64,000 nt of DNA, taken from Calothrix sp. NIES-2098 (GTDB lineage Bacteria; Cyanobacteriota; Cyanobacteriia; Cyanobacteriales; Nostocaceae). Within the stretch, counting starts at the first letter, position 1. The number at the start of each line of letters is the position of its first letter. Below are positions 13,201 through 26,676 of this stretch, piece by piece. Where the stretch lies: positions 29,599 to 93,598 of the forward strand of contig AP018172.1 in the NCBI GenBank assembly GCA_002368175.1, written 5' to 3'. The notes under the pieces are model-generated. The model searched no databases and was not told the DNA's origin. It was given only the letters and a program-made list of their open reading frames with translations. The position numbers and the translations under genes are program-made.

Positions 13201-13383
13201 CAATAATTCTTCTGTAGAACTTGGTGCAGTTTGAATTTGCGGTGTATTAATTGGCGGTGTGAAATTGGGTGTTGATGCGGCTAGTGATGGTTGCGTAGCG
13301 TTTTGGGGTGTAGTTTTTTTGCGTTGTGTTTTTATGCGATCGCTTGTCATGTCACCCAATTCCCCATCAACTGCTACAACCAA
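10285..13383 (-). CDS. large CIS effector-like protein: N-terminal FSxIPV-type leader motifs, coiled coil, two predicted TM helices, C-terminal HExxH zincin-like motif
   Basis: 1032 aa. Two copies of the motif typical of DUF4157-family toxins (HDIGRISCQPHVRP and HNFSQIPVLRPQ). A long charged coiled-coil region. Hydrophobic helices (AFAITAGIIASIVTLNPGIAIAVGTVV, LIWLIIAIADFAANALMLASYF). HELTHH near the C-terminus. Transcribed divergently from the CIS structural operon, downstream of a DUF4157 gene. Confidence 0.55.
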   Translation of the reverse strand: MVVAVDGELGDMTSDRIKTQRKKTTPQNATQPSLAASTPNFTPPINTPQIQTAPSSTEELLLAEASPQNLAEHDIGRISCQPHVRPTTNLLLRQLDENPPLQSDTPQLNNAQPAAKNPSSGSTTIQNPPTLQHNTYHGKNLDEVANNLPDEAGSVDFNFKVTTQGDPITQANLNVTQVMTMPRWAERNKQCPPVQQSWDNFYSALKNHEDGHVAIDNKEFPSAHQRFIGKATSDVTSESDALRAKVQAVHDQYDTTTDHGRKQTPPTEIDLSAECSKKAEKTSSSEEPSSETVVMAKTSGHNFSQIPVLRPQLGNFSGQVMLIQRQTPDAGTANNPGLSPEDARRLMYARTTLKETPPLDEGSKATLNTAMKDATAFTLIQERDKKGEELKQKTEQLEQLKRDIQDYSGRTPEVEAKEAQRDLLSNEINALTADFENQKKMVEAVLKSLNVEESQLVKLVTEDFPNMFVNRGKQIALVQLRQNRELAQKEADKYKDICTEAGDNGPQKREGLRNAAKDLTARTKEIENLQLQLREAHKDLPPGGVPEPEQASSSAYDLAHESEIQQRIEQKQNELKAQKSNYALKYQILLREDIDVEKLATASDAELTSIVGGKIDEILENIRTTEDNISQDKLRIWQLNDIVGMTKQDLGIDQNPTLSSVINTRIQKEQQIKADEKSLEDGLKAFAITAGIIASIVTLNPGIAIAVGTVVSAIDVVEKASTYSKQSAASDVGLDPAIAKMSAEDPQLIWLIIAIADFAANALMLASYFKQLRQAATTLEAFSKAATKVLPQEQAQKLIDIAKRNLKQGLNIAEQIEAVGAAFRDVDRAKVGLVLARYTNEAYTATFLELTQQGKILPMTEEAIRQAIKNEAQATTLVGKYINNPNLKAGGFYEPSTRTVFIAGDTSVNGVAGTVVHELTHHFQRITEASIISNQIFYAEYQAHLMQQKLIQKVAADYGNEVIPEASRWLINADDAEIAAKITQRYRVSPDPEIGLNRLQQEEIIQQMVDMRMKGIDRKQQLMEKLRQKVER

Positions 13384-13559
13384 GATAAGGCTTGTCTATT
13401 GCCAATTACCATCGACCTAAGATTAAAATTCTGCTAAGGGACTTGTAACTAAAAAAATATCTCAATTTATCAAACCGCATTAGACACGCAGTGGCTTCCC
13501 GCAGGCTAGACGCCAAGTACGCCAAGAATTCGTAGCGTGGGCGTAAGTCTTATCTATTT

Positions 13560-13866: not shown

Positions 13867-13871
13867 TATAT

Positions 13872-13903: not shown

Positions 13904-14599
13904 TTAATGATTTTGCTGCACAACGTGAGTTAATTCGTGAGCAAGTAACTCTTTACCTGGGTTACTTTCGGGAGCATATTCACCCTGACGGAAAAATATA
14001 TCTTGTCCGGTAGTGAAGGCGCGGGCTTGAATAGATTGGTTCATTTGGTCGGAGCGAGTATTATTGTGAATTTTGACACCGCTAAAATCAACGCCAAATG
14101 CTTGCTCCATTGGTTGGCGAACATTATCTGCTAGTGGCTGTCCGCTTCCCCGTGCTTGTTGAATAGAAGATTCTAAATTCGCTGCGGCTTCTGTCCCACC
14201 TTCAGTAGATTTAGCCTGTATTTCCTCTTCTGGTAGTTCTTCTCGTTGCACAAGGGGAGTGATGGAATCTCCTAGAGATTTTTTTTGCAGTGTTTCTTCT
14301 TCTGGTAATGCTTCTCGCTGGATAGGCTGACTCATAGTTTGCATTACCTGCTGCGCAACTCTATCGGCTTCTTGTTCATAAACATCCCCAGGTTGACTAA
14401 CTGCGAGTTTGGTTTGCGGACGTAGCGAGATGCGGCTAATGTCATGACCGAGGGGTTGGTTTTGAGATTGTACCTCAGCCACAGTTTGAGGGGAAGCTTC
14501 AGATGATTGTAAACCAAAGCCACGTTTTGGCTTGAGTGTAGGTATGGAAACGGGCGTAGTGTCAGCCTTTTGGCGCTGGGCTAATATGCGTTCTTTCAT
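13904..14599 (-). CDS. DUF4157-domain protein (eCIS-associated zincin-like HExxH domain), stand-alone
   Basis: The C-terminal 80 aa match the DUF4157 pattern closely (AFGVDFSGVKIHNN...ARAFTTGQDIFFRQGEYAP...LLAHELTHVVQQ). The N-terminus has the HDISRISLRP leader motif. The protein ends 4 aa after the HExxH. Confidence 0.85.
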   Translation of the reverse strand: MKERILAQRQKADTTPVSIPTLKPKRGFGLQSSEASPQTVAEVQSQNQPLGHDISRISLRPQTKLAVSQPGDVYEQEADRVAQQVMQTMSQPIQREALPEEETLQKKSLGDSITPLVQREELPEEEIQAKSTEGGTEAAANLESSIQQARGSGQPLADNVRQPMEQAFGVDFSGVKIHNNTRSDQMNQSIQARAFTTGQDIFFRQGEYAPESNPGKELLAHELTHVVQQNH

Positions 14600-15015
14600 T
14601 TTTTTCTCCTAATGCCCAAGCAGCAAGTAAATTTTTTATCAGTAGAGATATCTAGAATAGTGCTTCTCTCTGCCAAAGTCTAAATTAGGCAAAACTCAAG
14701 TTCGACTTTTGGCTAGTGTTGATTCTGATGCACTACCTTTAGCCTTGATTTTAGGATGAATTTTTTATTTTTAGTTATGGACTCAGAAGGAAAGCAAACT
14801 TTTTTTACACCTATTGGAGAAGTTGGGGGTAGTGTTGGTTATTCAGGCGTGTCAATTACCTCTAACCCCAGCCAAGTAGCTAAAGCAGCCGATAAGTATC
14901 TTAAAGACTCATTGCTTTTGCACAAGCTTACCGAACGTGTATATGAAATTTTACTTGAAGACCTGCGTTGCCAAAAGGAAAGGTTCAATAACTATAGTCA
15001 TCAAAGGTGGTTGTA

Positions 15016-15534
15016 ATGGCTGAAGGTAATAACGGCAATATTTCTCACGAGTTAAAGTATGTCACTACAAATCATTTCTATGTAGAAATCGATAGTTCTA
15101 TCGCTGCATCTTTTACTGAATGCGCTGGATTAAGTATGCAAGTGAAAAAAAATGTTTTTTTTGAAGGAGGTGTCAACGACCAGCAAAGAATTTATTTAGG
15201 ACACGCAGAATTTGCCGATGTCACTCTTAAACGCGGTGTCACCGACCACCCCGGTTTTTGGAATTGGATTAATGCAATTTTTGATGAAAAATCCACTACT
15301 CGGCGTAATGTTAATATTTTGGTTTTTAACCAAGCTGGCGAAACGATGATGAGTTGGACATTGATTGGTGCTATTCCTATATCTTGGAAAACACCAACCT
15401 TACAAGCAGATGGTAACGCAGTTGCTATAGAAGAATTAACTTTAGCTTATGAAGGTTTGCAATTAGGTAAATCTAAAGGCGGCGGTAATCCACAAACACG
15501 CGAGAAAAAGTCAGGTTTTTTCTTGTCTAATTAA
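15016..15534 (+). CDS. contractile injection system tube protein (T4 gp19 / Cis1-like)
   Basis: Conserved tail-tube family pattern (HFYVEIDS...FTECAGLS...YLGHAEFADVTLKRGVTD..FWNWI...WTLIGAIPISWKTPTLQADGNAVAIEELTLAYEGL). ATG at 15016; the ORF track begins at an upstream GTG. Confidence 0.85.
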   Translation: MAEGNNGNISHELKYVTTNHFYVEIDSSIAASFTECAGLSMQVKKNVFFEGGVNDQQRIYLGHAEFADVTLKRGVTDHPGFWNWINAIFDEKSTTRRNVNILVFNQAGETMMSWTLIGAIPISWKTPTLQADGNAVAIEELTLAYEGLQLGKSKGGGNPQTREKKSGFFLSN

Positions 15535-15557
15535 TTTGCAATTCTCCAACTAAAATT

Positions 15558-18500
15558 ATGCAAATTATTCAACCATTAATAGTAACTAAATTTCAACCGC
15601 TTGGGTTTGGAGTGAGAAAGCCTCTAGGTTATTCTCATCGACTTTTGTCAAGAAAAGAGTCTAGTTCTCTGTACGGTCATCATACTATCAAACCTTTAGG
15701 CGATCGCGTACCATTAGTCACCTATTCTCAATTTTTACAATCTCACGATAATCAAGTATTTAGCGACCCATCAATAGATGCTAATTTTCCAGAAACTGAA
15801 AATATTAATACTGACCTGACCTTAATTCAATTTGATACAGTTGATTCAGTTTTCTCAGATAGTAATAATCTTGATTCTGAATATATAGAAGGCGATATTC
15901 CAAATATATTACCTACTGCAAACACCAGCGACACGAATAATATTACACTGGAATCAAATATTAAAGTTAAGTCAAAATCCAAAAGAACGGAGAAATTGTC
16001 CGACTCTGAAGCTAAATCAAAGGCTAAATCTAGAGCTAAAAAAACGACTAAATCATCTAAGCAGATAGATGATATTCCTATTGTTAATAATAATGATGGG
16101 TTAGTAACACTCAATCAAAATCAAGCTTTAGATGCTAATAAAGAAACTAAAATACAGTCAAATATAAATGATAAAATAACTGATGGCGGTACTTCTATTA
16201 ATACCTGGAAAGCTTCGCTTATTGTTAATAATGAATCTGGATTAAGCGAGAATTTTGCTAATGAGGAAACGCCAGCGATCGCTGATTCTGTATCTACTGT
16301 AGATCGTGCTGATTTACCAACTATATCTCCTGCTACTAATAGCAGTGAAATTAGGACGCGATCGCCACAAGAAACTGCGTCAAAAACTATTGCTAATGAC
16401 ACTGCAAAAAGTTCAGAGTCAGAATCTAATGTAACTAGTATTGTTGATACATTAACTCTTTTAAGTAACTTAAATCCTAGAGAACAGACTATATTAACTG
16501 AAGATTCACAAGTTGTTGATGTCTCAGATATTCCAATTAACCAAACTGCAAAACAACAGGAAATAGTTACTAATTCAAATATCCTTAACCAACAAGATCT
16601 ATTCTCTACACAACAGCAGGAACATTTACCAGCTACAATTAGGAATTCTCAAGAAATTACAAACAATCTTCCAGACTCTAGCAATTATTTGTTAGATACT
16701 ACTAAACCTAGAGTTGAAGATACAGCTAATTTATCCCGTAATTTAGTAAATCTTTCCGAAGCACCATCTCCTCTACCCAACACTGAAGATTTAACTACAG
16801 TTAATGCATTAGATGCAGAAAATATTCCAAATATAACCACACCGGAAATTGTTAGTAATATATCCGTTCAGCCAGCACCAATCTCACCTGTAATTGAAGA
16901 TAACCTAATAGTCACTCCAGAATTACAGTCTACAGAAGTAGTTAATTTTGCGAATGCGCCAGCAAATGTCACTCCTCTACAAACTGACAGCACTAGCAAT
17001 ATACAATTAGCATCAACCTCGCCTGTAATTGCACAGGCGATAGTCACCTCAGAATCACAGTCTCTTGAATCAGATAATTTGGGGAACGCGCCAGAAAATG
17101 TCACTTCTCTACAAACTGACAGCACTAGCAATATACCCGTTCAGCTAGTACCAACTCCACCTGTAATTGCAGATAGGGGGATAATCTTGGATGCGTCAGA
17201 AAGTATAACTCCCCAACAAACTGACAACGCCAGCGATGTACCCGTTGAATTAGCAGCAACTCCACCTTTCATTGCAGATAACCCCATAATCGCTTCAGAA
17301 TCGGTTAATTTGTCGGATATACGAGAAAATATGACTCACCGACAAACTGATAGCACCAGCAATGTACCCGTTCAGCTAACGCCAACCTCACCTGTAATTG
17401 CAGATAACCCGATGGTGAGTTCAAAATCCCAATCTGCTGAATCAGTTAATTTGCTGGATGTGCAAGAAAGTCTGGTTTTATCCCCAGATGATAGCCAAAA
17501 AAACACAGAAATTCCAACTGTTGTCACTCCACTTCAATTGCGCCAAAGTACTGAAGTGGATACAGTAGCAGTAGATGAGAGTGCGATGTCTGACGAAAAG
17601 CCACATAGTGTCTACGCATCTGCCACATCAAGTATTATTTTGGAAGCTGGTAATGACGAACAACCTGTAAAACCAGATTTACCATCTACGGTTACAAGCT
17701 TGACTTTCACAGAGAATCAGTCAGAAACCTTAGATAACTTACCCGCACCACAAGGTTTTGCAACCGGGGGACAAGTCACACACTCCTCAGTGGAAAATCC
17801 ACAGATAGCATCTTCGGATACAGTCCCTGCTATGCTCACACCTGGGGAATTTGTCGTTAATGCTAATGATGCTCAGAAAAATCTTCACATACTCCGGCAT
17901 ATCAATACTGGTGGTACAGCAGAGGATATGATCCTTCCCAGTTTAGAGCTACCAACTCCAGAGACTCCGACTAAAGTCGATTCTTTTGCTGACACTTCAT
18001 TACAGCGTCAAAAATCTGATAATAGCGAATCTGAGGAATCTAACTCCCTAACTCCTGCTTCTTTAAGCACAGAAATTAGTCAGCACAGGCTTTCTTCACA
18101 CAGTTCTTTACCGCTAAATACTGTTGAAAACAATACTACTGCAAGAACTGAACCCTCTCCTCATTACTCATTACCTACATTAATCTTCCGCAAAACTACT
18201 TCCAACACTAACGCACCCTATGAAACGCCTACCCAATGGTCAAGTGTGGAAGAATTACTCAATGGAAACAACGATCCATTTACATCTTTTAACTTTAATG
18301 AGGAAGAATCTAACTGGCAAAATTCAGAACATTCTCAAACTTCACAACCATCGCCGCAAGTTTTTACTAAACGCCTAACTTCGGCTCAAGGCTTTGCTAA
18401 CGGTGGAGAAGTCACAGCACCCGATATAGCTACAGATATACAGCCAATAACTGAAACCATACAAAGTCCTTCTGCTGCTAATCCCGAAGCCGATGAATCT

Positions 18501-18605
18501 AGAAATCTAGAAGCTTTAGCCTATGAAATATATAACAGATTGCGACAACGAATAGAAGTTGAGCGAGAGCGTCAAGGTATCTATTTAGGTCGTTTACCTT
18601 GGTAA
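15558..18605 (+). CDS. 1015-aa low-complexity Ser/Thr/Asn/Asp-rich repeat protein; candidate tape-measure-like or cargo protein occupying the position where a sheath gene is expected
   Basis: Basic N-terminal ~60 aa, a Lys-rich patch (KSKSKRTEKLSDSEAKSKAKSRAKK), four to five 42-44-aa tandem repeats (..NVT.LQTDSTSNIPVQL.PT.PVIADN..), two GFA(T/N)GG(Q/E)VT motifs, and a structured C-terminus (LEALAYEIYNRLRQRIEVERERQGIY). Not sheath-like. Confidence 0.5.
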   Translation: MQIIQPLIVTKFQPLGFGVRKPLGYSHRLLSRKESSSLYGHHTIKPLGDRVPLVTYSQFLQSHDNQVFSDPSIDANFPETENINTDLTLIQFDTVDSVFSDSNNLDSEYIEGDIPNILPTANTSDTNNITLESNIKVKSKSKRTEKLSDSEAKSKAKSRAKKTTKSSKQIDDIPIVNNNDGLVTLNQNQALDANKETKIQSNINDKITDGGTSINTWKASLIVNNESGLSENFANEETPAIADSVSTVDRADLPTISPATNSSEIRTRSPQETASKTIANDTAKSSESESNVTSIVDTLTLLSNLNPREQTILTEDSQVVDVSDIPINQTAKQQEIVTNSNILNQQDLFSTQQQEHLPATIRNSQEITNNLPDSSNYLLDTTKPRVEDTANLSRNLVNLSEAPSPLPNTEDLTTVNALDAENIPNITTPEIVSNISVQPAPISPVIEDNLIVTPELQSTEVVNFANAPANVTPLQTDSTSNIQLASTSPVIAQAIVTSESQSLESDNLGNAPENVTSLQTDSTSNIPVQLVPTPPVIADRGIILDASESITPQQTDNASDVPVELAATPPFIADNPIIASESVNLSDIRENMTHRQTDSTSNVPVQLTPTSPVIADNPMVSSKSQSAESVNLLDVQESLVLSPDDSQKNTEIPTVVTPLQLRQSTEVDTVAVDESAMSDEKPHSVYASATSSIILEAGNDEQPVKPDLPSTVTSLTFTENQSETLDNLPAPQGFATGGQVTHSSVENPQIASSDTVPAMLTPGEFVVNANDAQKNLHILRHINTGGTAEDMILPSLELPTPETPTKVDSFADTSLQRQKSDNSESEESNSLTPASLSTEISQHRLSSHSSLPLNTVENNTTARTEPSPHYSLPTLIFRKTTSNTNAPYETPTQWSSVEELLNGNNDPFTSFNFNEEESNWQNSEHSQTSQPSPQVFTKRLTSAQGFANGGEVTAPDIATDIQPITETIQSPSAANPEADESRNLEALAYEIYNRLRQRIEVERERQGIYLGRLPW
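16840..17470 (+). repeat. intragenic tandem repeats of ~126-132 bp (x4-5) inside the 1015-aa gene
   Basis: Repeated DNA blocks such as gcgccagcaaatgtcactcctctacaaactgacagcactagcaatata... and gcgccagaaaatgtcacttctctacaaactgacagcactagcaatata... Confidence 0.8.
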
Positions 18606-18757
18606 TTTTTTTATAAAAACGAACCACGAAGTTCGCAAAGTTCGCAAAGTATGAGAAATCAAAAATAATTTCTAAACAAACTTTATTCTTCTACTCTCTG
18701 CGCCTCTGCGTTTCTGCGTGAACTTTCAAATCTATTAATCCTCATAACAATACTTAA

Positions 18758-19306
18758 ATGGCTACTCAAACAATTATCATTCCCCAAAAAAGGAATCCGC
18801 AACTACAGAAAGCTAAACTCGTAGCTTATGAAGGTGAAGCACCAGATATTGAACTGATGTTTAACCCTACAGAAATTAGTTTTTCTCGGACTGTTAGCTG
18901 GGAAAAAGAGAAAGGTAATAGAGGAACCACATTATTACCTAAAGTAAATTTCTCTGGTCTAGAACCTTACAAATTCACTCTTAAACAATTACTCTTTGAT
19001 ACTTATGAAACTAAACAATCCGTAATGGATTATATAGACATCATCAAGCAAGGAGTAGAAACTATTGAGCGAAATCCAGATAAACGTCCCCCAGTGTATA
19101 GGTTTATTTGGGGAATAGAATATTTTCATTGTGTAATTACTAGTCTCACATACAATTTAAATATGTTTCTGACTGATGGTACGCCAGTTAGAGCAATAGT
19201 AGATATCTCTTTACAAGAGGTAGATAAAAAGAACCCACCAGGGGGGAGACAATCAGCTTCTAAAGGCGCAAATCGTCAGCCAAATCCTAAGCTAGGAAAA
19301 ACTTAA
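18758..19306 (+). CDS. CIS tube-fold baseplate/tube-initiator protein (Cis5/Cis7-like)
   Basis: 182 aa. FNPTEISFSRTVSWEKEK...FSGLEPYKFTLKQLLFDTYE resembles the second, tube-like protein that sits between tube and spike genes in eCIS loci. The call rests on synteny plus this motif only. Confidence 0.5.
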   Translation: MATQTIIIPQKRNPQLQKAKLVAYEGEAPDIELMFNPTEISFSRTVSWEKEKGNRGTTLLPKVNFSGLEPYKFTLKQLLFDTYETKQSVMDYIDIIKQGVETIERNPDKRPPVYRFIWGIEYFHCVITSLTYNLNMFLTDGTPVRAIVDISLQEVDKKNPPGGRQSASKGANRQPNPKLGKT

Positions 19307-19360
19307 TAATTAGTTTTCAAGGCATTTATTCTTGCTTTATTGCCTATTTTTATCGTACTT

Positions 19361-21100
19361 ATGCCCGACCAAAGTCTTTATTTAAGCCAACCTAAATTGG
19401 AATTAGGAGGAGAAGCCGCTTCTCCTGAGCTAATGAAGGATTTATTACAAATTAGTGTGGAAGAAAGTTTACATTTACCAGCGATGTTTACGCTGTTAGT
19501 ACACAATAGCTATATTCCCACCGTTGACCGTCCAGAATATCAGCCTCGGCGTCACGAACAGTTATTTGAAATTGGTAAAAACGTTAAGATAGGTTTTACT
19601 TCTAGTACAACTCAAGATGGGAATTTTCAAAAAAAGTTAGATGATTATCTCATTGAAGGCGAAATTACAGCGATGGAAGTTCACTTCAATGAAAAATCAG
19701 AAGCTCATATAATTATTCGCGGTTACGATCTCTCTCATCGCCTGCATAGAGGTCGTTATAATCGTTCGTTCTTAAATAAAACTGATAGCGATATTGTAGA
19801 GCAAATAGCGTCAGAAGTAGGAATAAAAACTGGTAAAATAGACCCCAGCGGTGAAGCTCATGAATATGTCTTTCAAGAAAACCAAACTAATATGGAATTC
19901 TTACGAGAACGGGCTGCTCGCATTGGTTTTGAATTATTTATTTACAACAGCAAGCTATATTTTCGCAAACCAGAAAGCCAGGAATCGATAAAACTAAAAT
20001 GGCTAGTCGATATTAGTAAATTTAGTACCCGTGTCACCAGTGCAGAACAGGTGAGTGCTGTTGAAGTGCGTGGCTGGGATTATACTCAAAAAAAAGCGAT
20101 CGCATCTACAGCTAAAGCAGAAAAGGTAATAACTGATACAGGCAATAAAAAAGGTAGCAGTACTAGTACTAATTTTTCTAACTTAAAGCCGCCGAAAATG
20201 ACCGTTGTCGATCGACCAGTTGCTAGCACTACACAAGCACAGAAAATGGCGCAGGCTTTGTGTGATGAACTGGGAGGAGAATTTGTCTATGCAGATGCGA
20301 AAGCTGTAGGTAATCCCAAAGTTAGGCCAGGAAAAATAATTGAACTGGAAGGATTAGGCGATCGCTATAGTGGAAAGTATTATGTCACCGAAACTCGCCA
20401 TTTCTACGCTCAACGAATTTATACCACAGAGTTCAGCATTCGGGGGTTACGGGCTGGTAACTTATTCACCACTCTCTCGACTCAAACCCGTCTTCAGCCT
20501 GGTCAAACCTTCTTAGTAGGAATTGTCACCGATAACAAAGACCCTCAAGGATGGGGGCGAGTAAAAGTGAAATTTCCCACCCTCACTGAAGAACACGCTA
20601 GCAACTGGGCGCGAGTTGTGGCTTCGGGCGCAGCAAATCAACGTGGCTTTGATTGTTTACCAGAAGTTAACGATGAGGTTTTAGTTGGGTTTGAACATGG
20701 TGATATCCATCGCCCTTATGTAATAGGTGGTGTTTGGAATGGCAAAGACGCGCCACCAGAAGCGGTAGATGATACAGTTGTGGGGGGAAAAGTCCGATTA
20801 CGCACTGTCAAAACTCGTACAGGACACACCTTGCAGTTTATCGAAGAAGATAAAGGTAGCAGTAAAGCCGGGGTGCGCGTGCAAACGCAAGGCGGTCACA
20901 AAATTTATCTTAATGATAGCGATCGCTGTATTGAAATTGAAACCAACGGCGGTCATAAAATTAAAATGGATGATACAGGTAAATCAAAAATTTCCGTAGA
21001 ATCCACAGGTGATTTATCTTTAGAAGCTCCTAGAGGCAGCATTGATATTAAAGCCGGTCTGGATGTGACAGTCCAAGGTAAGTTTATTCGATTGAATTAG
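19361..21100 (+). CDS. spike/baseplate hub protein, VgrG-like (gpD + gp5/V OB-fold), Cis8-like
   Basis: C-terminal gpV/gp5-type domain (DNKDPQGWGRVKVKFP...NWARVV..GFDCLPEVNDEVLVGFEHGDIHRPYVIGGVWNG). Size and position fit a spike gene. The ATG at 19361 is preferred over the upstream TTG. Confidence 0.7.
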   Translation: MPDQSLYLSQPKLELGGEAASPELMKDLLQISVEESLHLPAMFTLLVHNSYIPTVDRPEYQPRRHEQLFEIGKNVKIGFTSSTTQDGNFQKKLDDYLIEGEITAMEVHFNEKSEAHIIIRGYDLSHRLHRGRYNRSFLNKTDSDIVEQIASEVGIKTGKIDPSGEAHEYVFQENQTNMEFLRERAARIGFELFIYNSKLYFRKPESQESIKLKWLVDISKFSTRVTSAEQVSAVEVRGWDYTQKKAIASTAKAEKVITDTGNKKGSSTSTNFSNLKPPKMTVVDRPVASTTQAQKMAQALCDELGGEFVYADAKAVGNPKVRPGKIIELEGLGDRYSGKYYVTETRHFYAQRIYTTEFSIRGLRAGNLFTTLSTQTRLQPGQTFLVGIVTDNKDPQGWGRVKVKFPTLTEEHASNWARVVASGAANQRGFDCLPEVNDEVLVGFEHGDIHRPYVIGGVWNGKDAPPEAVDDTVVGGKVRLRTVKTRTGHTLQFIEEDKGSSKAGVRVQTQGGHKIYLNDSDRCIEIETNGGHKIKMDDTGKSKISVESTGDLSLEAPRGSIDIKAGLDVTVQGKFIRLN

Positions 21101-21131
21101 GATTTTATTTCGCGCAAAGGCGCAAAGAAAA

Positions 21132-21644
21132 ATGACAGGAAGAGCAGCAGCAAGAATTACTGACTCAGTAGCGCACCCCTTACCCCCAGTGTTAACCCCA
21201 GGCCCCGGTAGTAACAATGTGTTAATTGGCAATTTACCAGCTTGGCGGGGTATACCTGCGGCGGCGGTGCCTGCTTTGCAGACTGCTAAACAAGCGGCTG
21301 ATACAGCTATCCAAGCGGCGGAGGCTGCTACTTTAGCGGCGGCGGGAACGCCAGGAGCACCAGCAGCCTATGCATCTGAACAAGCTCTCAAAACATCTCT
21401 GGGAGCTAGTATGAGTAGCATGATTTCTGCGGCTGCGGCTGCTGCTATCCCTGGTGCTGATATTCATCAATGTACTACGCCCTTACCCCTACCTCCCCAC
21501 GGGCCTGGGGTTGTGATTGACGGGAGTCAGACAGTAATGATTAACGGACTACCCGCTTGTCGTATGGGTGACACTGTTTTAGAAGCATTAGGCCCGCCGA
21601 ATAAAATTACCAAAGGTGAAATGACTGTTTTGATTGGTGGCTGA
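21132..21644 (+). CDS. PAAR-domain spike-tip protein (Cis10-like)
   Basis: Split PAAR motifs (ARITDSVAHPLPPVLTPGPGSNNVLIGNLPA ... HQCTTPLPLPPHGPGVVIDGSQTVMINGLPACRMGD) flanking an Ala-rich linker. Confidence 0.8.
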   Translation: MTGRAAARITDSVAHPLPPVLTPGPGSNNVLIGNLPAWRGIPAAAVPALQTAKQAADTAIQAAEAATLAAAGTPGAPAAYASEQALKTSLGASMSSMISAAAAAAIPGADIHQCTTPLPLPPHGPGVVIDGSQTVMINGLPACRMGDTVLEALGPPNKITKGEMTVLIGG

Positions 21645-21733
21645 CCGCTTCTCATCTCGACCTTTGGCGAATAGGCTTAAATCTGCTGTGCCGATATCTT
21701 TGAAAGTATAGATATCACAGCCATATAGTAACT

Positions 21734-22141
21734 ATGGTTTATGGTCAGCCACGAGATGATTTAGGAACTGGTTGGGCTTTCCCCTTGCGCTTGAATTTAC
21801 AAGGCGGGATACAACTCAGCAGTGAAGCGCAAAAAGTTAAAGAATCTATTTGGATAATTCTCCGCACTGGCGTAGGCGAACGAGTTTATCGCCCTAATTT
21901 TGGTTCGCGTTTGTCGGAATTAGCATTTGCACCGATGAATAACGACACTCTCATGCGGATTCGGATTTATGTTTTAGAAGCCCTCGAAGTTTGGGAACCG
22001 CGCATTACTGTCGATCAAGTCATTACCGAACCCGACCCGGTGCGTGGTCGAGTAGACATTAATATTAATTATCGACTTAAAGACAATCCTGATATTAACA
22101 ACTTTGTTTATCCGTTTTATTTATTGCCTCCTGAAGAATAA
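21734..22141 (+). CDS. baseplate wedge protein, gp25/GPW-like (Cis9-like)
   Basis: 135 aa. GWAFPL...IQLSSEAQKVKESIWIILRTGVGERVYRPNFGSRL matches the gp25-like lysozyme-fold family. Conserved order W-J-I. Confidence 0.75.
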   Translation: MVYGQPRDDLGTGWAFPLRLNLQGGIQLSSEAQKVKESIWIILRTGVGERVYRPNFGSRLSELAFAPMNNDTLMRIRIYVLEALEVWEPRITVDQVITEPDPVRGRVDININYRLKDNPDINNFVYPFYLLPPEE

Positions 22142-22160
22142 TTCCTAATTTGGTGTAACT

Positions 22161-24350
22161 GTGAAATTTGATTTTTTACCAGAATTACCATCTTCCAATT
22201 TAGACGATCGCACTTTTGATGATTTAGTCGAAGAGTGTACGATGCGTATCCCGCGCTATTGTCCTGAGTGGACAGACCACAACCTCAGCGATCCTGGGAT
22301 GACGCTAATTGAGTTATTTGCTTGGTTAACTGACCAGATGTTACTCAGGTTTAATCAAGTACCCAGAAAAAATTATGTAGCTTTTTTAGAATTATTGGGG
22401 ATTCGCCTCCAACCCCCCGCCCCAGCCCATACAGAATTAACTTTTTATTTAAGTTCCGATCTACCTGAAGCTTATACGATTCCTACAGGTATTGAAGTTT
22501 CCACAATCCGCACTGAAACCACACCTGCGATTACCTTTAGTACAGATTATCCTTTAATTATTGGTCAACCGCGTCTACAGCATTTCCTCACAGCCCAAAC
22601 TGTTGAAGATATCCCCCAATCTCTGCGCGAACGAGTCTCAAATATCTGGACTCGTCAGCCTAACGGTTTCTGGGCTGGTAGCGAACAAGCTGTATTTAAC
22701 GAACAACCCCAAGCCGGAAATTGCTTTTATTTAGTCATTAATTCTGACGATCCTTTAGATGGTAATGTCTTGGAAGTCACCATTCAAGGGGCGGCGGCGA
22801 CCCCTACAGGTATTGACCCGAATCATCCCCCCCGCAAATGGGAAGCTTGGGATGGACAAGATTGGCAACCAGTGTTAATGAAAGAGTCAGACGACCAAAC
22901 ACGGGGTTTCAGTTTTTACGAAATTAACCAACAAGGTCGAAATTCGGCGCAAGGTGCAGATGTGCGCCTACATTTACCGCAATCTTGGCCTGTGACTACC
23001 TTTACTGCTTACCGAGGACGTTGGCTGCGCTGTAGCTTTACCGCCCCCGAAGCCAATCGAGAAGGTTATAGCCGTCCGCCACGAATTACTGGGTTAGCAG
23101 TGCGGTCAATTGGCGGAACTGTGAGGGCGAGTCATAGTACTTTGATTCAAGATGAACGCTTGGGAATTAGTGACGGTACGCCAGGACAGACCTTTCAATT
23201 ACAAGCACCACCTGTTTTAGAACGTCGCGAAACTGAGTACATTATCGTGACTCCCCCTGGTGGCTTACCGCAAACTTGGCGTGAGGTGAGAGATTTTGCC
23301 GATTCTACATCCCAAGACCGTCACTATATTATTGATTCGCTGACTGGTGTAGTTCAGTTTGGGCCGTTGATTCGCGAACCAGGACAACTCCAACGCCAAA
23401 CACAAGTGCGATCGCGTATTCAGCAGCCAAGATTAGAAGACACGGTAGTGCAAGTGAGCGACATTGAAAACCAACTTGAACACCAATACGGAGCAGTTCC
23501 TCCACGCGGTTCCGAAATTAGAATTCTCGCTTACCGCACGGGAGGAGGCAAAGAAGGTAATGTACAAGTTGGCTCGCTTCAGTTTTTGAAGTCGGCTGTA
23601 CCCTACGTAGCCAGCGTCACAAATTACAAAGCAGCAATTAACGGTGCAGATGCCGAATCTTTGGAACAAGCGGTAATTAAAGCTCCCCGCATCCTGCGTA
23701 CACGCGATCGCGCTGTGACAGCCGAAGACTTTGAGGTATTAGCACAGCAAGCAGGTGCAGGTGCGATCGCCCGCGTGCGTTGTTTAACTACTAGTCAGGC
23801 GGGTACAGTTAGCTTATTACTAGTTCCCCAAGCCAATACAGATGCGATTTTTCAAGGCGAAGGTATCGCACCGACGCAATTTGCTCTCAGCCCCGCACTA
23901 CAAGAGCAAGTTTTACAATACTTAGACGAAAGAAAGTTATTAGGAGTACAAGTCAGACTCTTAGAACCGGAGTATGTCGGTGTTTCCGTCCAAACAGAAG
24001 TCATTCTCGAACCCGCTTATGATAACCCTTTAGCTAGAGCAGAAATTCTCCGTAACTTAAGAATTTCCCTGTATAAATATTTAAATCCTCTCACTGGGGG
24101 AACTGAAGGTAAAGGCTGGCCTTTTGGGCGACCCGTTTATCCCTCAGATATCATCGCTTTAATGCAACAAACCCCAGGCGTGCGTTATTTAGGCCCAGTC
24201 CTGCTATTTCCCATCCGCAAGCAAGGAGAAACCTGGCGAAGACAACCATCACCAGAACAATTAATCGACCCAGGAGTACAAGGTTTAATTTGTTCTTGGT
24301 TTGACCCCAGTCTGCGTTCCGGTCATGACATCCAAATCATTACTCGCTAA
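22161..24350 (+). CDS. baseplate J / gp6-like protein (Cis11-like)
   Basis: 729 aa, immediately after the gp25-like gene and before the gpI-like gene (the conserved gpW-gpJ-gpI block of P2-type baseplates). Assigned by synteny and size; motif-level support is weak. Confidence 0.6.
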   Translation: MKFDFLPELPSSNLDDRTFDDLVEECTMRIPRYCPEWTDHNLSDPGMTLIELFAWLTDQMLLRFNQVPRKNYVAFLELLGIRLQPPAPAHTELTFYLSSDLPEAYTIPTGIEVSTIRTETTPAITFSTDYPLIIGQPRLQHFLTAQTVEDIPQSLRERVSNIWTRQPNGFWAGSEQAVFNEQPQAGNCFYLVINSDDPLDGNVLEVTIQGAAATPTGIDPNHPPRKWEAWDGQDWQPVLMKESDDQTRGFSFYEINQQGRNSAQGADVRLHLPQSWPVTTFTAYRGRWLRCSFTAPEANREGYSRPPRITGLAVRSIGGTVRASHSTLIQDERLGISDGTPGQTFQLQAPPVLERRETEYIIVTPPGGLPQTWREVRDFADSTSQDRHYIIDSLTGVVQFGPLIREPGQLQRQTQVRSRIQQPRLEDTVVQVSDIENQLEHQYGAVPPRGSEIRILAYRTGGGKEGNVQVGSLQFLKSAVPYVASVTNYKAAINGADAESLEQAVIKAPRILRTRDRAVTAEDFEVLAQQAGAGAIARVRCLTTSQAGTVSLLLVPQANTDAIFQGEGIAPTQFALSPALQEQVLQYLDERKLLGVQVRLLEPEYVGVSVQTEVILEPAYDNPLARAEILRNLRISLYKYLNPLTGGTEGKGWPFGRPVYPSDIIALMQQTPGVRYLGPVLLFPIRKQGETWRRQPSPEQLIDPGVQGLICSWFDPSLRSGHDIQIITR

Positions 24351-24361
24351 GGGAAAAGCTT

Positions 24362-25393
24362 ATGGTTCAAAGCCGTTATAGCCCAGCCGTTAACATTCAA
24401 CTCACCCCAATGCAAATTCCCGAAGCTGTACCTGGGGCTGGTTTAGCATTTGCCGGGCCAGAAGGGATGAATGAAACAGGGCATAGTTTGCTTTTGCATC
24501 CGGGACAACCCAGCGAAATGATTGTCCAGGTCAAAAACTTAGAACAACGCCCCTTACGTCTAAGTTTAAAAGTAGAAGGTGAATTTCCCTCTCATTGGTG
24601 CCAAATTGGTACAGAAGGTAGCGAAATTTTGCCAGGCGAACAGATGGATGCAGTGTTATATTTCACTGTTCCTGCCACATTTTTTGAAGACCAAGAAGCA
24701 ATTTCACCAGGAAAAAAAGATAAATTAATACTCAACTTTCGCTGTCTAGTAGTTGTTAATATCGACCCTGGTACAGAACGAGAACAAATCCAGCACAGTG
24801 AAATATTTAGTTTATATATTCGTCCCTACAGTTTCTACATGGAATTTTTGCCCGTTCTTTATCGAGAAGTAGACTTTATTGGTCGCTTCATCAAGATATT
24901 TGAACAAGCTTATCAACCCGCAATTGATAGTTTTAACGTCATGTGGGCAAACATCGATCCCTTAACAGCACCAAGGGCAATACTACCTTTTTTAGCTCAT
25001 TGGGTAGCTTGGCAAGTAGACTCTGTTTGGAATCTCGACCAACAACGCCGTTTAATTCGTCGTGCAGTAGAAATTTATCGCTGGCGAGGAACTCGTAAAG
25101 GATTGCGTCTTTATCTACATCTTTATACAGGGCTACCTTTAGACGAGGATATACCAAACGAAACCGATAAACATATTAGTATTACAGAACCCTTTGGTCC
25201 CAGTTTTATCTTAGGTGATGCCCAAATCGGTAGCGCAGTTTTAGCAGGTGGGCAAGCATATCACTTTATAGTCCGCTTGCGTACAGCTCTTTCTCATAAC
25301 TATATTAATGAACAACTAGTAAGAAAAATTATTGAACAAGAAAAACCCGCTTTTTGTACCTATGAATTATTAATAGAAAACCCAAATAATTAA
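24362..25393 (+). CDS. phage tail protein I-like baseplate protein (Cis12-like)
   Basis: 343 aa; its position after gpJ is typical. Assignment by synteny. Confidence 0.5.
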   Translation: MVQSRYSPAVNIQLTPMQIPEAVPGAGLAFAGPEGMNETGHSLLLHPGQPSEMIVQVKNLEQRPLRLSLKVEGEFPSHWCQIGTEGSEILPGEQMDAVLYFTVPATFFEDQEAISPGKKDKLILNFRCLVVVNIDPGTEREQIQHSEIFSLYIRPYSFYMEFLPVLYREVDFIGRFIKIFEQAYQPAIDSFNVMWANIDPLTAPRAILPFLAHWVAWQVDSVWNLDQQRRLIRRAVEIYRWRGTRKGLRLYLHLYTGLPLDEDIPNETDKHISITEPFGPSFILGDAQIGSAVLAGGQAYHFIVRLRTALSHNYINEQLVRKIIEQEKPAFCTYELLIENPNN

Positions 25394-25395
25394 AA

Positions 25396-25416
25396 GTAGG
25401 GTGGGCATTGCCCACC
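25396..25416 (+). terminator. stem-loop 3 nt after the gpI-like stop (GUAGGGUGGGC-AUU-GCCCACC followed by AAAAUAUAAUC)
   Basis: 7-bp GC-rich stem with a 3-nt loop. The tail is A-rich rather than U-rich, so not a canonical intrinsic terminator. Same motif as at 13872-13896. Confidence 0.35.
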
Positions 25417-25476
25417 AAAATATAATCTACAGTATTACTTCGTGTTCTTTGCGTCCTTCGCGGTTAGTTTTTGTAT

Positions 25477-26676
25477 ATGACACATCCATTTCCACCACCA
25501 AATATCAAATCCTTTGAACGCCTGCAAGCTTCAGATGGGCTATTAATAAATGCAGAACGCTGGAGTAAAGCCCATGATTACCATCGTCTGCGACAAAACA
25601 CTCATTATCAATGCTTAAACCAACCTGGAATAGTCTGCGGTTTAGGCGTGAGAGTTATTCCTGCACCCCGCCAAGTAGAAGCGAAATATCGAGATGGACG
25701 CTGGGTACAAATTCAGCCGGGAATTGCTATTGATGTAGCTGGGAATTTAATTGTAGTGCCTAAAGCTTATGATTTTCCTATTGATTTAGAAGTAGTAAGT
25801 TCAGAACCAGTTACCATTTACTTAGTAGTCAGTTATGTAGATCCTGATGAATTGCGACGCGGACAGCCAAGAGATATTGTCCAAGAAACATATCGCATCG
25901 ATCAAAAAAATTCTACGCTAGAAAGTTCAGAAATAGAACTGTGTAGGATACTTTTACAACCAGGACAAAATGCTATTAGTCAGCCGACGGATGTTTTCTT
26001 TCCTGGTTATCAAAATATTGATTTACGTTACCGCCGTCATGCACAAGCAAGACCGCAAACAAATGTAGCGATCGCACAGGTAAATCATAGCGATTCTGAA
26101 TGCGCCCGCAATTTTTTCAACCTCTCATACTTGCTACAATCAATCGAACCTCTATACCCAGCTTTACGCGGAATTGATGAGCCAGGACAGGTTTCTTTAG
26201 GAGAAAATATTCAAGACTATGACTTACTTTATTTAACAGGCCAGCAAGCACTATCTTTTAACAGTATTGAATTTGAATCTCTGAGAAATTATGTAAATTC
26301 TGGTGGGATACTTTTAGTTGATGCGCCCCAAAATGCTCAACCACTAATTGAAAGTACCCACGCCTTAGCCCAGCAACTAGAAAATCCTCTTAGACCTTTA
26401 GAAGAGTTACAAAGAAGCCATCCTTTAAGAACCAAACCTTTTTTATTTGCTGCTTTGCCAATTATCAATCAACAGTTAATTCGGCTATTAATTGGCGGCG
26501 GAATCATTTTAGTAATTGGCGATCTAGCTACGGCTTGGGGACTAGATAGAGAATTAACTTTACCCCGACTAACTATTAGAACAGCGCAGGAACTAGGGAT
26601 TAATATTCTGCATTATGCTTGGAAGCGGCGACAGTTTATCGGTTTGCAACAAGAAGATAACTCCGGTAAGTGGTAG
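25477..26676 (+). CDS. hypothetical protein, last gene of the CIS island (function unknown)
   Basis: ~400-aa ORF with no motif I can assign. Separated from the gpI-like gene by the stem-loop. Start uncertain (TTG 25471 or ATG 25477). Confidence 0.4.
   Translation: MTHPFPPPNIKSFERLQASDGLLINAERWSKAHDYHRLRQNTHYQCLNQPGIVCGLGVRVIPAPRQVEAKYRDGRWVQIQPGIAIDVAGNLIVVPKAYDFPIDLEVVSSEPVTIYLVVSYVDPDELRRGQPRDIVQETYRIDQKNSTLESSEIELCRILLQPGQNAISQPTDVFFPGYQNIDLRYRRHAQARPQTNVAIAQVNHSDSECARNFFNLSYLLQSIEPLYPALRGIDEPGQVSLGENIQDYDLLYLTGQQALSFNSIEFESLRNYVNSGGILLVDAPQNAQPLIESTHALAQQLENPLRPLEELQRSHPLRTKPFLFAALPIINQQLIRLLIGGGIILVIGDLATAWGLDRELTLPRLTIRTAQELGINILHYAWKRRQFIGLQQEDNSGKW

What the first reader, a model, noticed from the sequence alone, without database searches (positions are those of the whole stretch)
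13904..26676. Contractile-injection-system (eCIS-like) operon with no sheath, cap or dedicated ATPase gene
The plus-strand operon encodes a gp19-type tube protein, a second tube-fold protein, a VgrG/gp5-like spike, PAAR, gp25, gp6(J) and a gpI-like protein. A DUF4157 gene, a hallmark of eCIS loci, lies divergently upstream. There is no ORF anywhere in this 13-kb block, or within ~10 kb on either side, that could be a contractile sheath (Cis2), a terminator cap (Cis16) or the dedicated AAA+ ATPase (Cis15). The slot directly after the tube gene, where sheath genes normally sit, is occupied by a 1015-aa disordered repeat protein. Canonical eCIS, T6SS and tailocins all need a sheath, so this is either a split system with the sheath module elsewhere in the genome, a decaying locus, or a non-canonical tube/baseplate-only apparatus.
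Basis: partly seen in the sequence, partly recalled or inferred. Interest (0 to 1): 0.85.

Follow-up and report, generated by a model that had tools for sequence, protein, structure and literature searches.

The report
Baseplate half of a split injection system
This operon is the baseplate-and-spike part of an ordinary phage-tail-like injection machine whose sheath, cap and ATPase genes lie at two other places on the same Calothrix chromosome, so it is not a sheath-less device.

Summary
Window 13904-26676 encodes a DUF4157/eCIS_core protein, a gp19 tube, a CIS_tube, VgrG, PAAR, gp25, J and a P2-I-like protein. Nothing in the 64 kb encodes a sheath, a cap or a CIS ATPase. The AAA+ gene at 50238-51761 is Ycf46.

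The exciting reading fails. Exact-sequence look-ups place the window on the Calothrix sp. NIES-2098 chromosome. That chromosome also carries two further modules:
- an intact cap-sheath-tube-tube module (BAY13734-13737, NIES2098_69310 onward);
- a Pvc16_N plus WHD-AAA ATPase module (BAY07546/07545, NIES2098_06630).

In relatives these modules lie next to the window operon. They are separated from it only by the HK-RR-STK-FHA cassette that the window holds at 5449-10160. On a Brasilonema plasmid the whole system sits in about 45 kb. Both halves best match one solved machine, the Streptomyces coelicolor CIS (subtype IId).

A 14-nt promoter element, TCGACNNNNGKCKA, precedes the distant cap gene and occurs at two sites in the window operon. 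This suggests the modules are controlled together from separate sites.

The window genes are intact and under purifying selection (dN/dS 0.05-0.21).

Split eCIS loci were already described by Chen et al. 2019. Verdict: a new member of a known kind, of modest interest.

The parts
5449..6597 (+). Sensor histidine kinase, first gene of the four-gene regulatory cassette
   Evidence: Pfam HATPase_c E 2e-24 and HisKA. The cassette lies between the sheath module and the baseplate operon in most of 80 related loci.
6581..7267 (+). NarL/LuxR-type response regulator. It is the candidate activator of the shared promoter element (inference).
   Evidence: Response_reg E 6e-23 plus GerE E 9e-20. 83-89% identical in relatives. 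dN/dS 0.08.
7310..9511 (+). Protein with a weak Ser/Thr-kinase-like N-terminus and a PBP_like_2 domain
   Evidence: PBP_like_2 E 3.5e-7; Pkinase E 3e-4, below the Pfam cut-off. Conserved in the cassette. Annotated 'serine/threonine protein kinase' on pBOCT2.
9489..10160 (+). FHA-domain protein, last gene of the cassette
   Evidence: FHA E 4e-13. Conserved in the cassette.
10285..13383 (-). 1032-aa putative effector with metallopeptidase-like domains. This slot is variable between genomes.
   Evidence: DUF922 E 2e-17; DUF6782 E 3e-5, below cut-off. The slot holds other genes in relatives. Its assignment as cargo is inferred from position only.
13904..14599 (-). eCIS_core (DUF4157) protein, divergent from the baseplate operon
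   Evidence: PF13699 E 1e-32. It is BAY06919, NIES2098_00290. Orthologues vary in length, 243-546 aa.
14675..14715 (+). Promoter region P1. AAAGTCTAA lies at 14675-14683 and TCGACTTTTGGCTA at 14702-14715, followed 24 nt later by TAGCCT (a TAnnnT hexamer).
   Evidence: The motif has 2 matches in 64 kb against 0.11 expected. The same element lies upstream of 11/12 baseplate operons, 82/82 cap genes and 3/3 gp25 genes in relatives, with fixed spacing to TAnnnT.
14756..15016 (+). Conserved 86-aa ORF, first gene of the operon. It shares a C-terminal motif with the 1015-aa protein.
   Evidence: Orthologues of 79-86 aa, 50-65% identical, always just before the tube gene. Motif shown.
15007..15534 (+). 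gp19-type tube paralogue. By position it is Cis5-like (tube initiator), not the major tube.
   Evidence: PF06841 E 6e-39. It is a third tube paralogue beside the two in the sheath module (22-27% identical). PDB matches do not separate Cis1 from Cis5, so the assignment rests on gene order.
15558..18605 (+). 1015-aa protein with a conserved N-terminus, a variable Pro/Ser/Thr/Glu/Gln-rich repeat middle and a conserved C-terminal region of about 300 aa carrying a tape-measure-like motif
   Evidence: No Pfam, NCBIfam or PDB hit. PHROG 25241 'tail length tape measure protein' E 1e-4 at residues 733-787. Orthologues are 1154-1427 aa and differ in the repeat region.
18758..19306 (+). Cis7-like tube/baseplate adaptor (CIS_tube)
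   Evidence: PF19266 E 4e-24. PDB matches to tube-initiator/Cis7 chains 8KEA_P, 9GTP_P, 7AEB_M and All3321.
19340..21100 (+). VgrG-like spike, one contiguous ORF
   Evidence: Phage_base_V E 3e-26, Phage_GPD E 2e-9.
21132..21644 (+). PAAR spike tip
   Evidence: PAAR_motif E 8e-13.
21657..21670 (+). Internal promoter element P2, TCGACCTTTGGCGA, upstream of gp25, followed 24 nt later by TATCTT
   Evidence: The same element lies upstream of gp25 in 3/3 relatives that cover that gene.
21734..22141 (+). gp25/TssE-type sheath initiator (Cis9)
   Evidence: GPW_gp25 E 1e-22. dN/dS 0.05-0.09.
22161..24350 (+). Baseplate wedge J/gp6 (Cis11)
   Evidence: Baseplate_J E 5e-11. Best solved relative is the S. 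coelicolor CIS baseplate chain 9GTP_1K, E 2e-117.
24362..25393 (+). Baseplate wedge, P2 gpI-like (Cis12)
   Evidence: Tail_P2_I E 4e-9. PHROG 48 'tail protein' E 1e-7.
25471..26676 (+). DUF4159 protein, last gene of the operon, with a weak Cis13-like N-terminus
   Evidence: DUF4159 E 6e-18. NCBIfam CIS13_fam E 6.5e-10, but 39 bits against a cut-off of 370. Conserved at this position in relatives.

Best explanation
The window carries one of three dispersed gene modules of a single contractile injection system of the Streptomyces-like lineage (eCIS subtype IId) in Calothrix sp. NIES-2098.

- Module B (window 14756-26676) builds the spike (VgrG, PAAR), the tube initiators (a gp19 paralogue and a Cis7-like protein), a tape-measure-like long protein and the baseplate wedges (gp25, J, I, DUF4159).
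- Module A supplies the Pvc16_N cap, the contractile sheath, two tube proteins, tail-assembly chaperones and an FHA protein. It lies near the other end of the chromosome record (NIES2098_69310 onward).
- Module C supplies a second Pvc16_N protein and a WHD-AAA+ ATPase. It lies about 630 locus tags downstream of module B (NIES2098_06620/06630).

Inferred assembly: the baseplate and spike from module B nucleate assembly. The tube and sheath from module A polymerise on gp25 and the tube initiators. The cap then terminates the structure.

Inferred regulation: the histidine kinase and NarL-type response regulator encoded beside module B (window 5449-7267) switch on modules A and B together. They would act through a shared element, TCGACNNNNGKCKA, placed 24-25 nt upstream of a TAnnnT hexamer. 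The kinase-like and FHA proteins would add a phosphorylation checkpoint comparable to the T6SS threonine-phosphorylation pathway.

The DUF4157 protein, and possibly the 1032-aa peptidase-like protein next to it, are candidate cargo.

Shown: gene content, location of the three modules in one chromosome, their contiguity in relatives, the shared promoter element, and purifying selection. Inferred: co-assembly, which regulator binds the element, and the role of the long protein.
For: 1. Source genome. Exact-sequence look-ups put the window proteins on the 8,656,060-bp Calothrix sp. NIES-2098 contig, as BAY06912-BAY06952.

2. Missing parts on the same contig. It encodes the sheath P0126 = BAY13735, cap BAY13734 (NIES2098_69310) and tubes BAY13736/37. 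It also encodes the ATPase P0314 = BAY07545 with Pvc16_N/DUF4255 protein BAY07546 (NIES2098_06630). Their DNA in Logan contigs shows intact genes in the order cap-sheath-tube-tube-chaperones, and STK | Pvc16_N-AAA.

3. Contiguity in relatives.
- The JGI genome Ga0573885_001 and Calothrix NIES-4071 have cap-sheath-tube-tube divergent from HK-RR-STK-FHA, followed by the same baseplate operon.
- Of 80 GTDB sheath loci, 62 carry cassette genes within 10 kb of the cap. Six more are too short on that side to tell. Twelve have 7-9 kb of upstream sequence without the cassette.
- Brasilonema plasmid pBOCT2 has modules A, cassette, B and C in about 45 kb.
- Module C lies 10-30 kb beyond module B in two genomes and beside module A in three.

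4. The same split elsewhere. In Nostoc sp. C117 the baseplate lies at 6.47 Mb and the sheath at 0.57 Mb of one chromosome. The 821-aa gene flanking module A in NIES-2098 also flanks it in Aulosira ZfuVER01 and Nostoc T09.

5. One machine. The window J protein best matches 9GTP (E 2e-117). The module A sheath best matches 8BKY/9GTP (E 3e-121). Both entries are the S. coelicolor CIS (PMC12237407).

6. Shared promoter element.
- It occurs twice in the window (14702 and 21657) against 0.11 expected.
- It lies 81 nt upstream of the cap gene in the same genome.
- It lies upstream of 82/82 cap genes, 11/12 baseplate operons and 3/3 gp25 genes in relatives.
- Its spacing to TAnnnT is constant.

7. Selection. 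All window ORFs are intact. dN/dS against three relatives is 0.05-0.21.
Against: - The NIES-2098 chromosome could not be read outside the window. The positions of modules A and C rest on accession and locus-tag order, and on the contig length reported for each protein.
- The distance between A and B (several hundred kb across the start of the record, if the chromosome is circular) is an estimate.
- Co-expression and co-assembly are not shown.
- Geller et al. list two eCIS operons for NIES-2098, one on a scaffold labelled plasmid1. I could not identify them, so another CIS may be present in the strain.
- Module C has no copy of the promoter element upstream.
- Which of the three gp19 paralogues is the major tube is not resolved by sequence.
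Confidence: 0.9

Rival explanations
1. The window operon is a decaying remnant of a CIS cluster that lost its sheath module and no longer works.
For: No sheath, cap or ATPase anywhere in the 64 kb. The flanks are housekeeping genes such as DNA ligase and an aldo-keto reductase.
Against: All ten structural ORFs are intact and full length compared with relatives. dN/dS is 0.05-0.21. Promoter elements are retained. Intact sheath and ATPase modules exist on the same chromosome. The same split layout persists in Nostoc C117, Aulosira ZfuVER01 and Nostoc T09.
Confidence: 0.03
2. The operon builds a non-contractile, sheath-less tube-and-baseplate apparatus that works on its own.
For: It has its own tube paralogue, a tape-measure-like protein and a full baseplate in one operon. 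The long protein is absent from textbook eCIS maps.
Against: gp25, whose known role is to start sheath polymerisation (established knowledge for T4 gp25/TssE), is conserved at dN/dS 0.05-0.09. The identical operon sits beside a sheath module in most relatives. The sheath module in this genome has no baseplate genes of its own (no baseplate hits in L077/L078) and so needs this operon. The two share a promoter element.
Confidence: 0.02
3. The window baseplate operon partners with a different CIS in the strain, for instance a plasmid-borne cluster, rather than with chromosomal modules A and C.
For: The Geller et al. 2021 supplements list two eCIS operons in Calothrix sp. NIES-2098, one on a scaffold labelled plasmid1. 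Chen et al. report chromosome-plus-plasmid IId pairs in Calothrix NIES-4101.
Against: The top 25 of 63 PLSDB plasmid records matching the window J protein include no Calothrix record. A close paralogue would be expected to rank among the four cyanobacterial hits at 54-70% identity. 38 weaker records were not listed, and I did not check whether NIES-2098 plasmid1 is in PLSDB. Chromosomal module A is a stand-alone that lacks a baseplate. Modules A and B are adjacent in relatives and share the promoter element.
Confidence: 0.05

Closest known systems
Streptomyces coelicolor cytoplasmic CIS (CIS-Sc, eCIS subtype IId; PDB 8BKY, 8BL4, 9GTP, 9GTS)
   Same: It is the best solved match for both the window J/Cis11 (E 2e-117) and the partner sheath (E 3e-121). 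It also has a separate sheath operon with two tube genes, a single VgrG ORF, a single J gene, a Pvc16_N cap and an AAA+ ATPase that is not needed to form particles (PMC10066040, PMC12237407, PMC10020575).
   Different: CIS-Sc is one contiguous cluster, sco4242-4260. The Calothrix system is spread over three chromosomal sites. It has a third gp19 paralogue, a PAAR gene (absent in S. coelicolor) and a 1015-aa protein with a tape-measure-like motif, whereas CIS-Sc is reported to lack a tape measure. It also has a DUF4159 protein and an embedded HK-RR-STK-FHA cassette.
'Split loci' of eCIS (Chen et al. 2019, dbeCIS), including the T6SS-iv of Amoebophilus asiaticus
   Same: Core genes of one CIS are encoded at separate genomic places, yet the machine works (PMC6899500). 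This is the category the window falls into.
   Different: Those authors describe two-site splits in 13 genomes. Here there are three sites. The split is shared by several Nostocales species. I could not check whether NIES-2098 is on their list, because the supplement is not held.
Thylakoid-anchored CIS of Anabaena sp. PCC 7120 (all3313-all3327; PDB 7B5H/7B5I)
   Same: It is a cyanobacterial CIS with DUF4157 effectors. It has tube initiators Cis5 and Cis7 and a partly disordered Cis6 between them that plugs the spike (PMC8894136). That is the same gene position as the 1015-aa protein.
   Different: It belongs to a different lineage: All3325 aligns only to the C-terminal third of the partner sheath (residues 361-545) at E 2e-53, and there is no PDB hit to the window's 1015-aa or DUF4159 proteins. 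The Anabaena cluster is contiguous. The CIS13_fam match here is far below the cut-off.
T6SS threonine-phosphorylation pathway (PpkA/Fha1/PppA of Pseudomonas aeruginosa)
   Same: A kinase-like protein and FHA proteins are encoded inside a contractile-system locus. This comparison is my own recollection of the T6SS literature and was not tested.
   Different: No phosphatase was seen. The kinase domain in the cassette scores below the Pfam cut-off. No experiment links it to this system.

Membership tests
eCIS / CIS superfamily (Afp/PVC-like; Chen 2019, Geller 2021) | Contractile sheath (PF04984/PF17482) | tested here: met
   Absent from the window. Present on the same chromosome as BAY13735, 553 aa with both domains.
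eCIS / CIS superfamily (Afp/PVC-like; Chen 2019, Geller 2021) | Pvc16_N (DUF4255) tail terminator, which separates eCIS from phage tails (PMC10020575) | tested here: met
   Absent from the window. BAY13734 (279 aa, Pvc16_N plus CarboxypepD_reg) and BAY07546 (423 aa, Pvc16_N) are on the same chromosome.
eCIS / CIS superfamily (Afp/PVC-like; Chen 2019, Geller 2021) | Dedicated AAA+ ATPase (Afp15/Cis15) | tested here: met
   BAY07545, 664 aa, WHD (PF22977) plus AAA, next to a Pvc16_N gene. Orthologues lie inside the cluster on pBOCT2 and near it in two genomes. Identity with Afp15 itself was not tested directly.
eCIS / CIS superfamily (Afp/PVC-like; Chen 2019, Geller 2021) | Tube, VgrG spike, PAAR, gp25, J and gpI-type baseplate genes in one operon | tested here: met
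   All are in window 15007-25393 with Pfam E-values from 4e-9 to 6e-39.
eCIS / CIS superfamily (Afp/PVC-like; Chen 2019, Geller 2021) | All core genes in one contiguous cluster | tested here: not met
   There are three sites by locus tag: 00290-00380, 06620-06630 and 69310 onward. This is the 'split locus' variant of Chen et al..
eCIS / CIS superfamily (Afp/PVC-like; Chen 2019, Geller 2021) | Associated DUF4157/eCIS_core protein | tested here: met
   13904-14599(-), E 1e-32.
eCIS subtype IId (Streptomyces-like) | Single contiguous VgrG ORF, single J gene, and closest relatives among IId systems | tested here: met
   One VgrG ORF and one J ORF. The best PDB matches are CIS-Sc, described as the first IId structure. 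Outside cyanobacteria, the closest plasmid-borne J homologues (about 36% identity) are in Streptomyces and Deinococcus. No tree was placed against dbeCIS.
eCIS subtype IId (Streptomyces-like) | afp12 absent from most IId loci, and afp14 generally absent from lineage II (Chen 2019) | tested here: not met
   A P2-I-like gene is present. The 1015-aa protein carries a weak tape-measure motif (PHROG 25241, E 1e-4). This is a difference in accessory content, not in the core.
Thylakoid-anchored CIS (Anabaena tCIS) | Cis13 with a transmembrane helix, an extended Cis12 of more than 1000 aa, and Cis19 | tested here: not met
   The I-like protein is 343 aa. CIS13_fam scores 39 bits against a cut-off of 370. 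There is no PDB match for the DUF4159 protein. Cis19 was not searched for.
Type VI secretion system | TssB/TssC sheath, TssJLM membrane complex, TssK and ClpV | tested here: not met
   No such Pfam or NCBIfam hits in the window or in modules A and C. The sheath is of the phage/eCIS type, and the terminator is Pvc16_N.
Prophage tail or R-type tailocin | Capsid, portal, terminase or lysis genes nearby, and no Pvc16_N or AAA+ genes | tested here: not met
   No capsid or lysis genes in the 64 kb. Pvc16_N and AAA+ partners are present in the genome.

The most novel reading that the evidence does not exclude
A contractile injection system whose genes are scattered over three chromosomal sites is held together as one regulon. 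The proposed link is a dedicated promoter element, TCGACNNNNGKCKA followed 24-25 nt later by TAnnnT, read by the system's own NarL-type response regulator. Kinase and FHA proteins would gate assembly. The system also contains a length-variable protein with a tape-measure motif in a lineage (IId) reported to lack a tape measure. That protein shares a C-terminal docking-like peptide with the 86-aa protein at the start of the operon.
Probability: 0.4. Interest if true: 0.45.

Novelty: new member of a known kind. Interest (0 to 1): 0.28.

Why it matters
The finding removes an apparent exception: there is no evidence here for a sheath-less injection machine.

It also gives practical warnings. Catalogues that require at least ten linked core genes, such as Geller et al., may miss or mis-score this system. 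'Missing' core genes in a single window should be checked genome-wide.

Three leads are modest but usable:
- The uncharacterised cyanobacterial IId-type CIS has a clear candidate regulon signature that can be searched for and tested.
- It has an embedded two-component plus kinase/FHA cassette.
- It has a candidate length-determining protein in a lineage where none has been reported.

Tried and rejected
- **Ycf46 as the missing ATPase.** I considered the AAA+ gene at 50238-51761. Sources name it Ycf46, and no homologue lies beside any CIS module in 88 related loci. Rejected.
- **Pseudogene remnants.** I looked for sheath or cap remnants in the window with relaxed tblastn (E up to 50, word size 2). 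Only noise appeared.
- **Cis1 versus Cis5.** I tried to assign the window tube by PDB sequence matches. The E-values overlap for all three paralogues, so this is unresolved.
- **The 1015-aa protein.** No match in Pfam, NCBIfam or the PDB. The only hit is a weak PHROG tape-measure match.
- **The window genome's other modules.** The look-up of encoding contigs returned Logan contigs for the sheath and ATPase, but not the NCBI chromosome, and nothing for J. Exact coordinates could therefore not be read.
- **Published catalogues.** I checked whether NIES-2098 appears as a split locus. The Chen 2019 supplements are not held. The Geller 2021 supplements list two operons, but the stored files are cut.
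- **A plasmid-borne paralogue.** No Calothrix record appears among the listed PLSDB plasmid matches to the window J protein.
- **Rfam.** The scan of the window found only one tRNA.
- **Promoter element at module C.** The element was not found upstream of module C. The matches in L089 and L090 lie inside the Pvc16_N coding sequence.

Full report

Yes. Between 13904 and 26676 the window holds these genes (Pfam):
- a divergent eCIS_core/DUF4157 gene (13904-14599, minus strand, E 1e-32);
- an 86-aa ORF (14756-15016);
- a gp19 tube (15007-15534, E 6e-39);
- a 1015-aa protein with no Pfam hit (15558-18605);
- a CIS_tube protein (18758-19306, E 4e-24);
- VgrG (19340-21100), PAAR (21132-21644), gp25 (21734-22141), Baseplate_J (22161-24350) and a P2-I-like protein (24362-25393);
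- a DUF4159 protein (25471-26676).

I scanned every ORF of 100 aa or more in the whole 64 kb against Pfam. None matched a sheath or a Pvc16_N cap. Relaxed tblastn with the cognate cap, sheath and ATPase proteins from relatives found no remnants.

The one AAA+ gene apart from the housekeeping FtsH protease (42954-44840), at 50238-51761 on the minus strand, is named 'stress-responsive protein Ycf46' by its sources. It is never linked to CIS genes in related loci.

**2. What do relatives look like?**

The tube protein has hundreds of homologues at 70-89% identity in Nostocales. Gene neighbourhoods show three layouts.
- Nostoc sp. C117 has the same sheath-less layout as the window.
- Calothrix NIES-4071 and a 9.3-Mb JGI genome have a second operon just upstream, divergent from the window-type genes. 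It runs: Pvc16_N cap, sheath, two gp19 tubes, two small proteins matching a tail-assembly-chaperone PHROG family plus one without a match, and an FHA protein. I call this module A.
- Between module A and the baseplate operon (module B) lies a four-gene cassette: histidine kinase, NarL-type response regulator, a kinase-like/PBP_like_2 protein, and an FHA protein. The window holds this cassette at 5449-10160.

Module A contains no baseplate genes, and module B contains no sheath. Neither can be a system by itself.

I surveyed 80 sheath loci from GTDB species representatives. Cassette genes lie within 10 kb of the cap in 62. Six loci are too short on that side to tell. Twelve have 7-9 kb of upstream sequence without the cassette.

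A third module (C) was found beside module A in three of those loci. It consists of a divergent Ser/Thr kinase, a roughly 423-aa Pvc16_N protein and a roughly 662-aa WHD+AAA ATPase. Toxin genes lie nearby in two of the genomes examined. Its ATPase has orthologues in the genomes that carry A and B. It lies 10-30 kb past module B in the JGI genome and in NIES-4071.

On Brasilonema octagenarum plasmid pBOCT2 the order A, cassette, B, C fills about 45 kb.

**3. What about the window's own genome?**

Exact-sequence look-ups show that the window proteins are BAY06912 to BAY06952 of Calothrix sp. NIES-2098, on a contig of 8,656,060 bp. Examples are eCIS_core = NIES2098_00290, CIS tube = _00330 and J = _00370.

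The same contig encodes the missing parts:
- cap BAY13734 (NIES2098_69310), sheath BAY13735, tubes BAY13736 and BAY13737;
- ATPase BAY07545 with Pvc16_N/DUF4255 protein BAY07546 (NIES2098_06630).

Logan contigs that translate exactly to these proteins show both modules intact.

Rough distances, inferred from locus tags at about 1.2 kb per gene and not measured:
- Module C lies about 630 genes, or 0.7-0.8 Mb, downstream of module B.
- Module A lies near the far end of the record. If the chromosome is circular, that is a few hundred kb from module B across the record start.

**4. Is the split stable, and are the parts one machine?**

- The 821-aa gene upstream of module A in NIES-2098 also flanks module A in Aulosira ZfuVER01 and Nostoc T09. 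The J proteins of those strains fall in the same 90% cluster as the window's. The junction therefore predates these species.
- Nostoc sp. C117 has the baseplate at 6.47 Mb and the sheath at 0.57 Mb of one chromosome.
- Window genes compared with three relatives give dN/dS of 0.05-0.21.
- The window J protein best matches chain 1K of PDB 9GTP (E 2e-117). The module A sheath best matches 8BKY/9GTP (E 3e-121). Both are the S. coelicolor CIS, which its authors describe as the first subtype IId structure.

**5. A shared promoter element.**

The region upstream of the 86-aa ORF is strongly conserved, and so is the region upstream of the cap gene. Both contain TCGAC-N4-G-K-C-K-A.
- In the window the pattern occurs twice against 0.11 expected, and no shuffle out of 100 reached two matches. 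One copy is at 14702, upstream of the operon. The other is at 21657, upstream of gp25.
- In relatives it precedes 82 of 82 cap genes, 11 of 12 baseplate operons and 3 of 3 gp25 genes.
- In the window's own genome it lies 81 nt upstream of the cap start codon.
- A TAnnnT hexamer follows at a fixed offset of 37-39 nt from the start of the element in almost all cases. This placement fits an activator site overlapping the -35 region.

That the NarL-type regulator of the cassette binds this element is my inference. It would explain how separated modules stay coordinated.

**6. The 1015-aa protein and the 'sheath slot'.**

In all relatives the order is: small ORF, gp19 paralogue, long protein, CIS_tube, VgrG. 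The gp19 gene in the window is therefore a third tube paralogue. It sits in the position of the Cis5 tube initiator. The long protein sits in the position of Cis6, which in Anabaena plugs the spike and extends a flexible loop into the tube.

Its orthologues range from 1015 to 1427 aa. The conserved parts are about 70 N-terminal residues and about 300 C-terminal residues. The middle is variable and rich in Pro, Ser, Thr, Glu and Gln.

The conserved region carries the motif APQGFATGGxVT...SDTVPAMLTPGEFVINA. This gives a weak match to a phage tape-measure family (PHROG 25241, E 1e-4).

I read the protein as a tape-measure or plug protein, with low confidence. Both Streptomyces papers state that CIS-Sc has no tape measure gene, so this lead may be of some interest.

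**7. Comparison with what is known.**

Chen et al. 2019 already defined 'split loci' in 13 genomes, including the Amoebophilus T6SS-iv, and recorded subtype IId loci in Calothrix. The system here is therefore a further member of a known kind.

Its particular features are the three-site dispersal, the embedded two-component plus kinase/FHA cassette, and the promoter element.

Geller et al. list two eCIS operons in NIES-2098, one on a scaffold labelled plasmid1. Their filter needs at least ten linked core genes, which none of the three modules alone is likely to reach. I could not identify those two operons. The listed PLSDB plasmid matches to the window J protein include no Calothrix record.

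**8. Verdict.**

The sheath-less interpretation is not supported. The locus is the baseplate, spike and regulatory part of a split but otherwise canonical IId-type contractile injection system. Interest is modest.

Noticed in passing
window 14918-15016 and 18507-18605: The 86-aa protein and the 1015-aa protein, which flank the tube gene, end in the same roughly 30-residue motif: L..L..E[IV]Y..L...[LIM]...[RKQ]ER..(N/G)Y....W. The motif is conserved in all four genomes compared and occurs nowhere else in the eleven sources scanned (the window and ten related loci). It could be a shared docking or chaperone-binding peptide.
   Followed up: partly
window 13563-13867: A tandem array of a 21-nt unit (GTACTTCACAGTCGTGTTGAG, 14.6 copies, 78% matches) lies between the 1032-aa gene and the eCIS_core gene. 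It produces the repetitive 100-aa 'ORF' at 13480-13782, which is probably not a real gene.
   Followed up: partly
window 50238-51761 (-): A 507-aa AAA+ protein is named 'stress-responsive protein Ycf46' by NCBI and UniRef. It is a housekeeping cyanobacterial gene, not a CIS ATPase.
   Followed up: yes
L005 13804-15504; L065 14763-16916 and 17047-19227: Module A ends with an FHA protein whose C-terminus resembles methylglyoxal synthase (NCBIfam E 4e-22). In Nostoc sp. C117 (L065) the next gene encodes a CHASE2 plus Ser/Thr-kinase protein, and most sheath loci have a kinase-domain match at the same position. This would be a second kinase/FHA pair associated with the system.
   Followed up: partly
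L089 1738-6256; L065 2429-6986: A WD40-repeat protein (about 740 aa) followed by a 763-788-aa protein without Pfam hits lies next to module C in the JGI genome and next to module A in Nostoc sp. C117. It may be a further accessory pair of the system.
   Followed up: no
L089 14826-20629; L090 16820-21992: Large polymorphic toxin genes lie beside the ATPase module in relatives. One combines PT-HINT and Ntox1 and is followed by an Imm26 gene. Another combines eCIS_core with Endonuclease_NS_2 and is 1991 aa or longer. Much of the cargo may therefore be encoded at module C rather than beside the baseplate operon.
   Followed up: no
related loci L009-L061, about 6000-6460 (antisense within the kinase-like gene of the cassette): The sequence TCGACTATCGGCTA fits the promoter pattern. 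It is conserved on the antisense strand inside the kinase-like gene in about 37 loci, but it is absent from the window's copy of that gene. It may be a coding constraint or an internal antisense promoter.
   Followed up: no
window 36558-38177 and 38280-39848: Two tandem Ser/Thr kinase genes have kinase domains 41% and 37% identical to the kinase that sits divergently beside the ATPase module in Nostoc FACHB-152. A link to the CIS was not examined.
   Followed up: no
Calothrix sp. NIES-2098 genome, outside the window: The Geller et al. 2021 supplementary tables list two eCIS operons for this strain, one on scaffold Ga0264112_11 labelled plasmid1. I could not determine which loci these are or how they relate to the three chromosomal modules.
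   Followed up: partly
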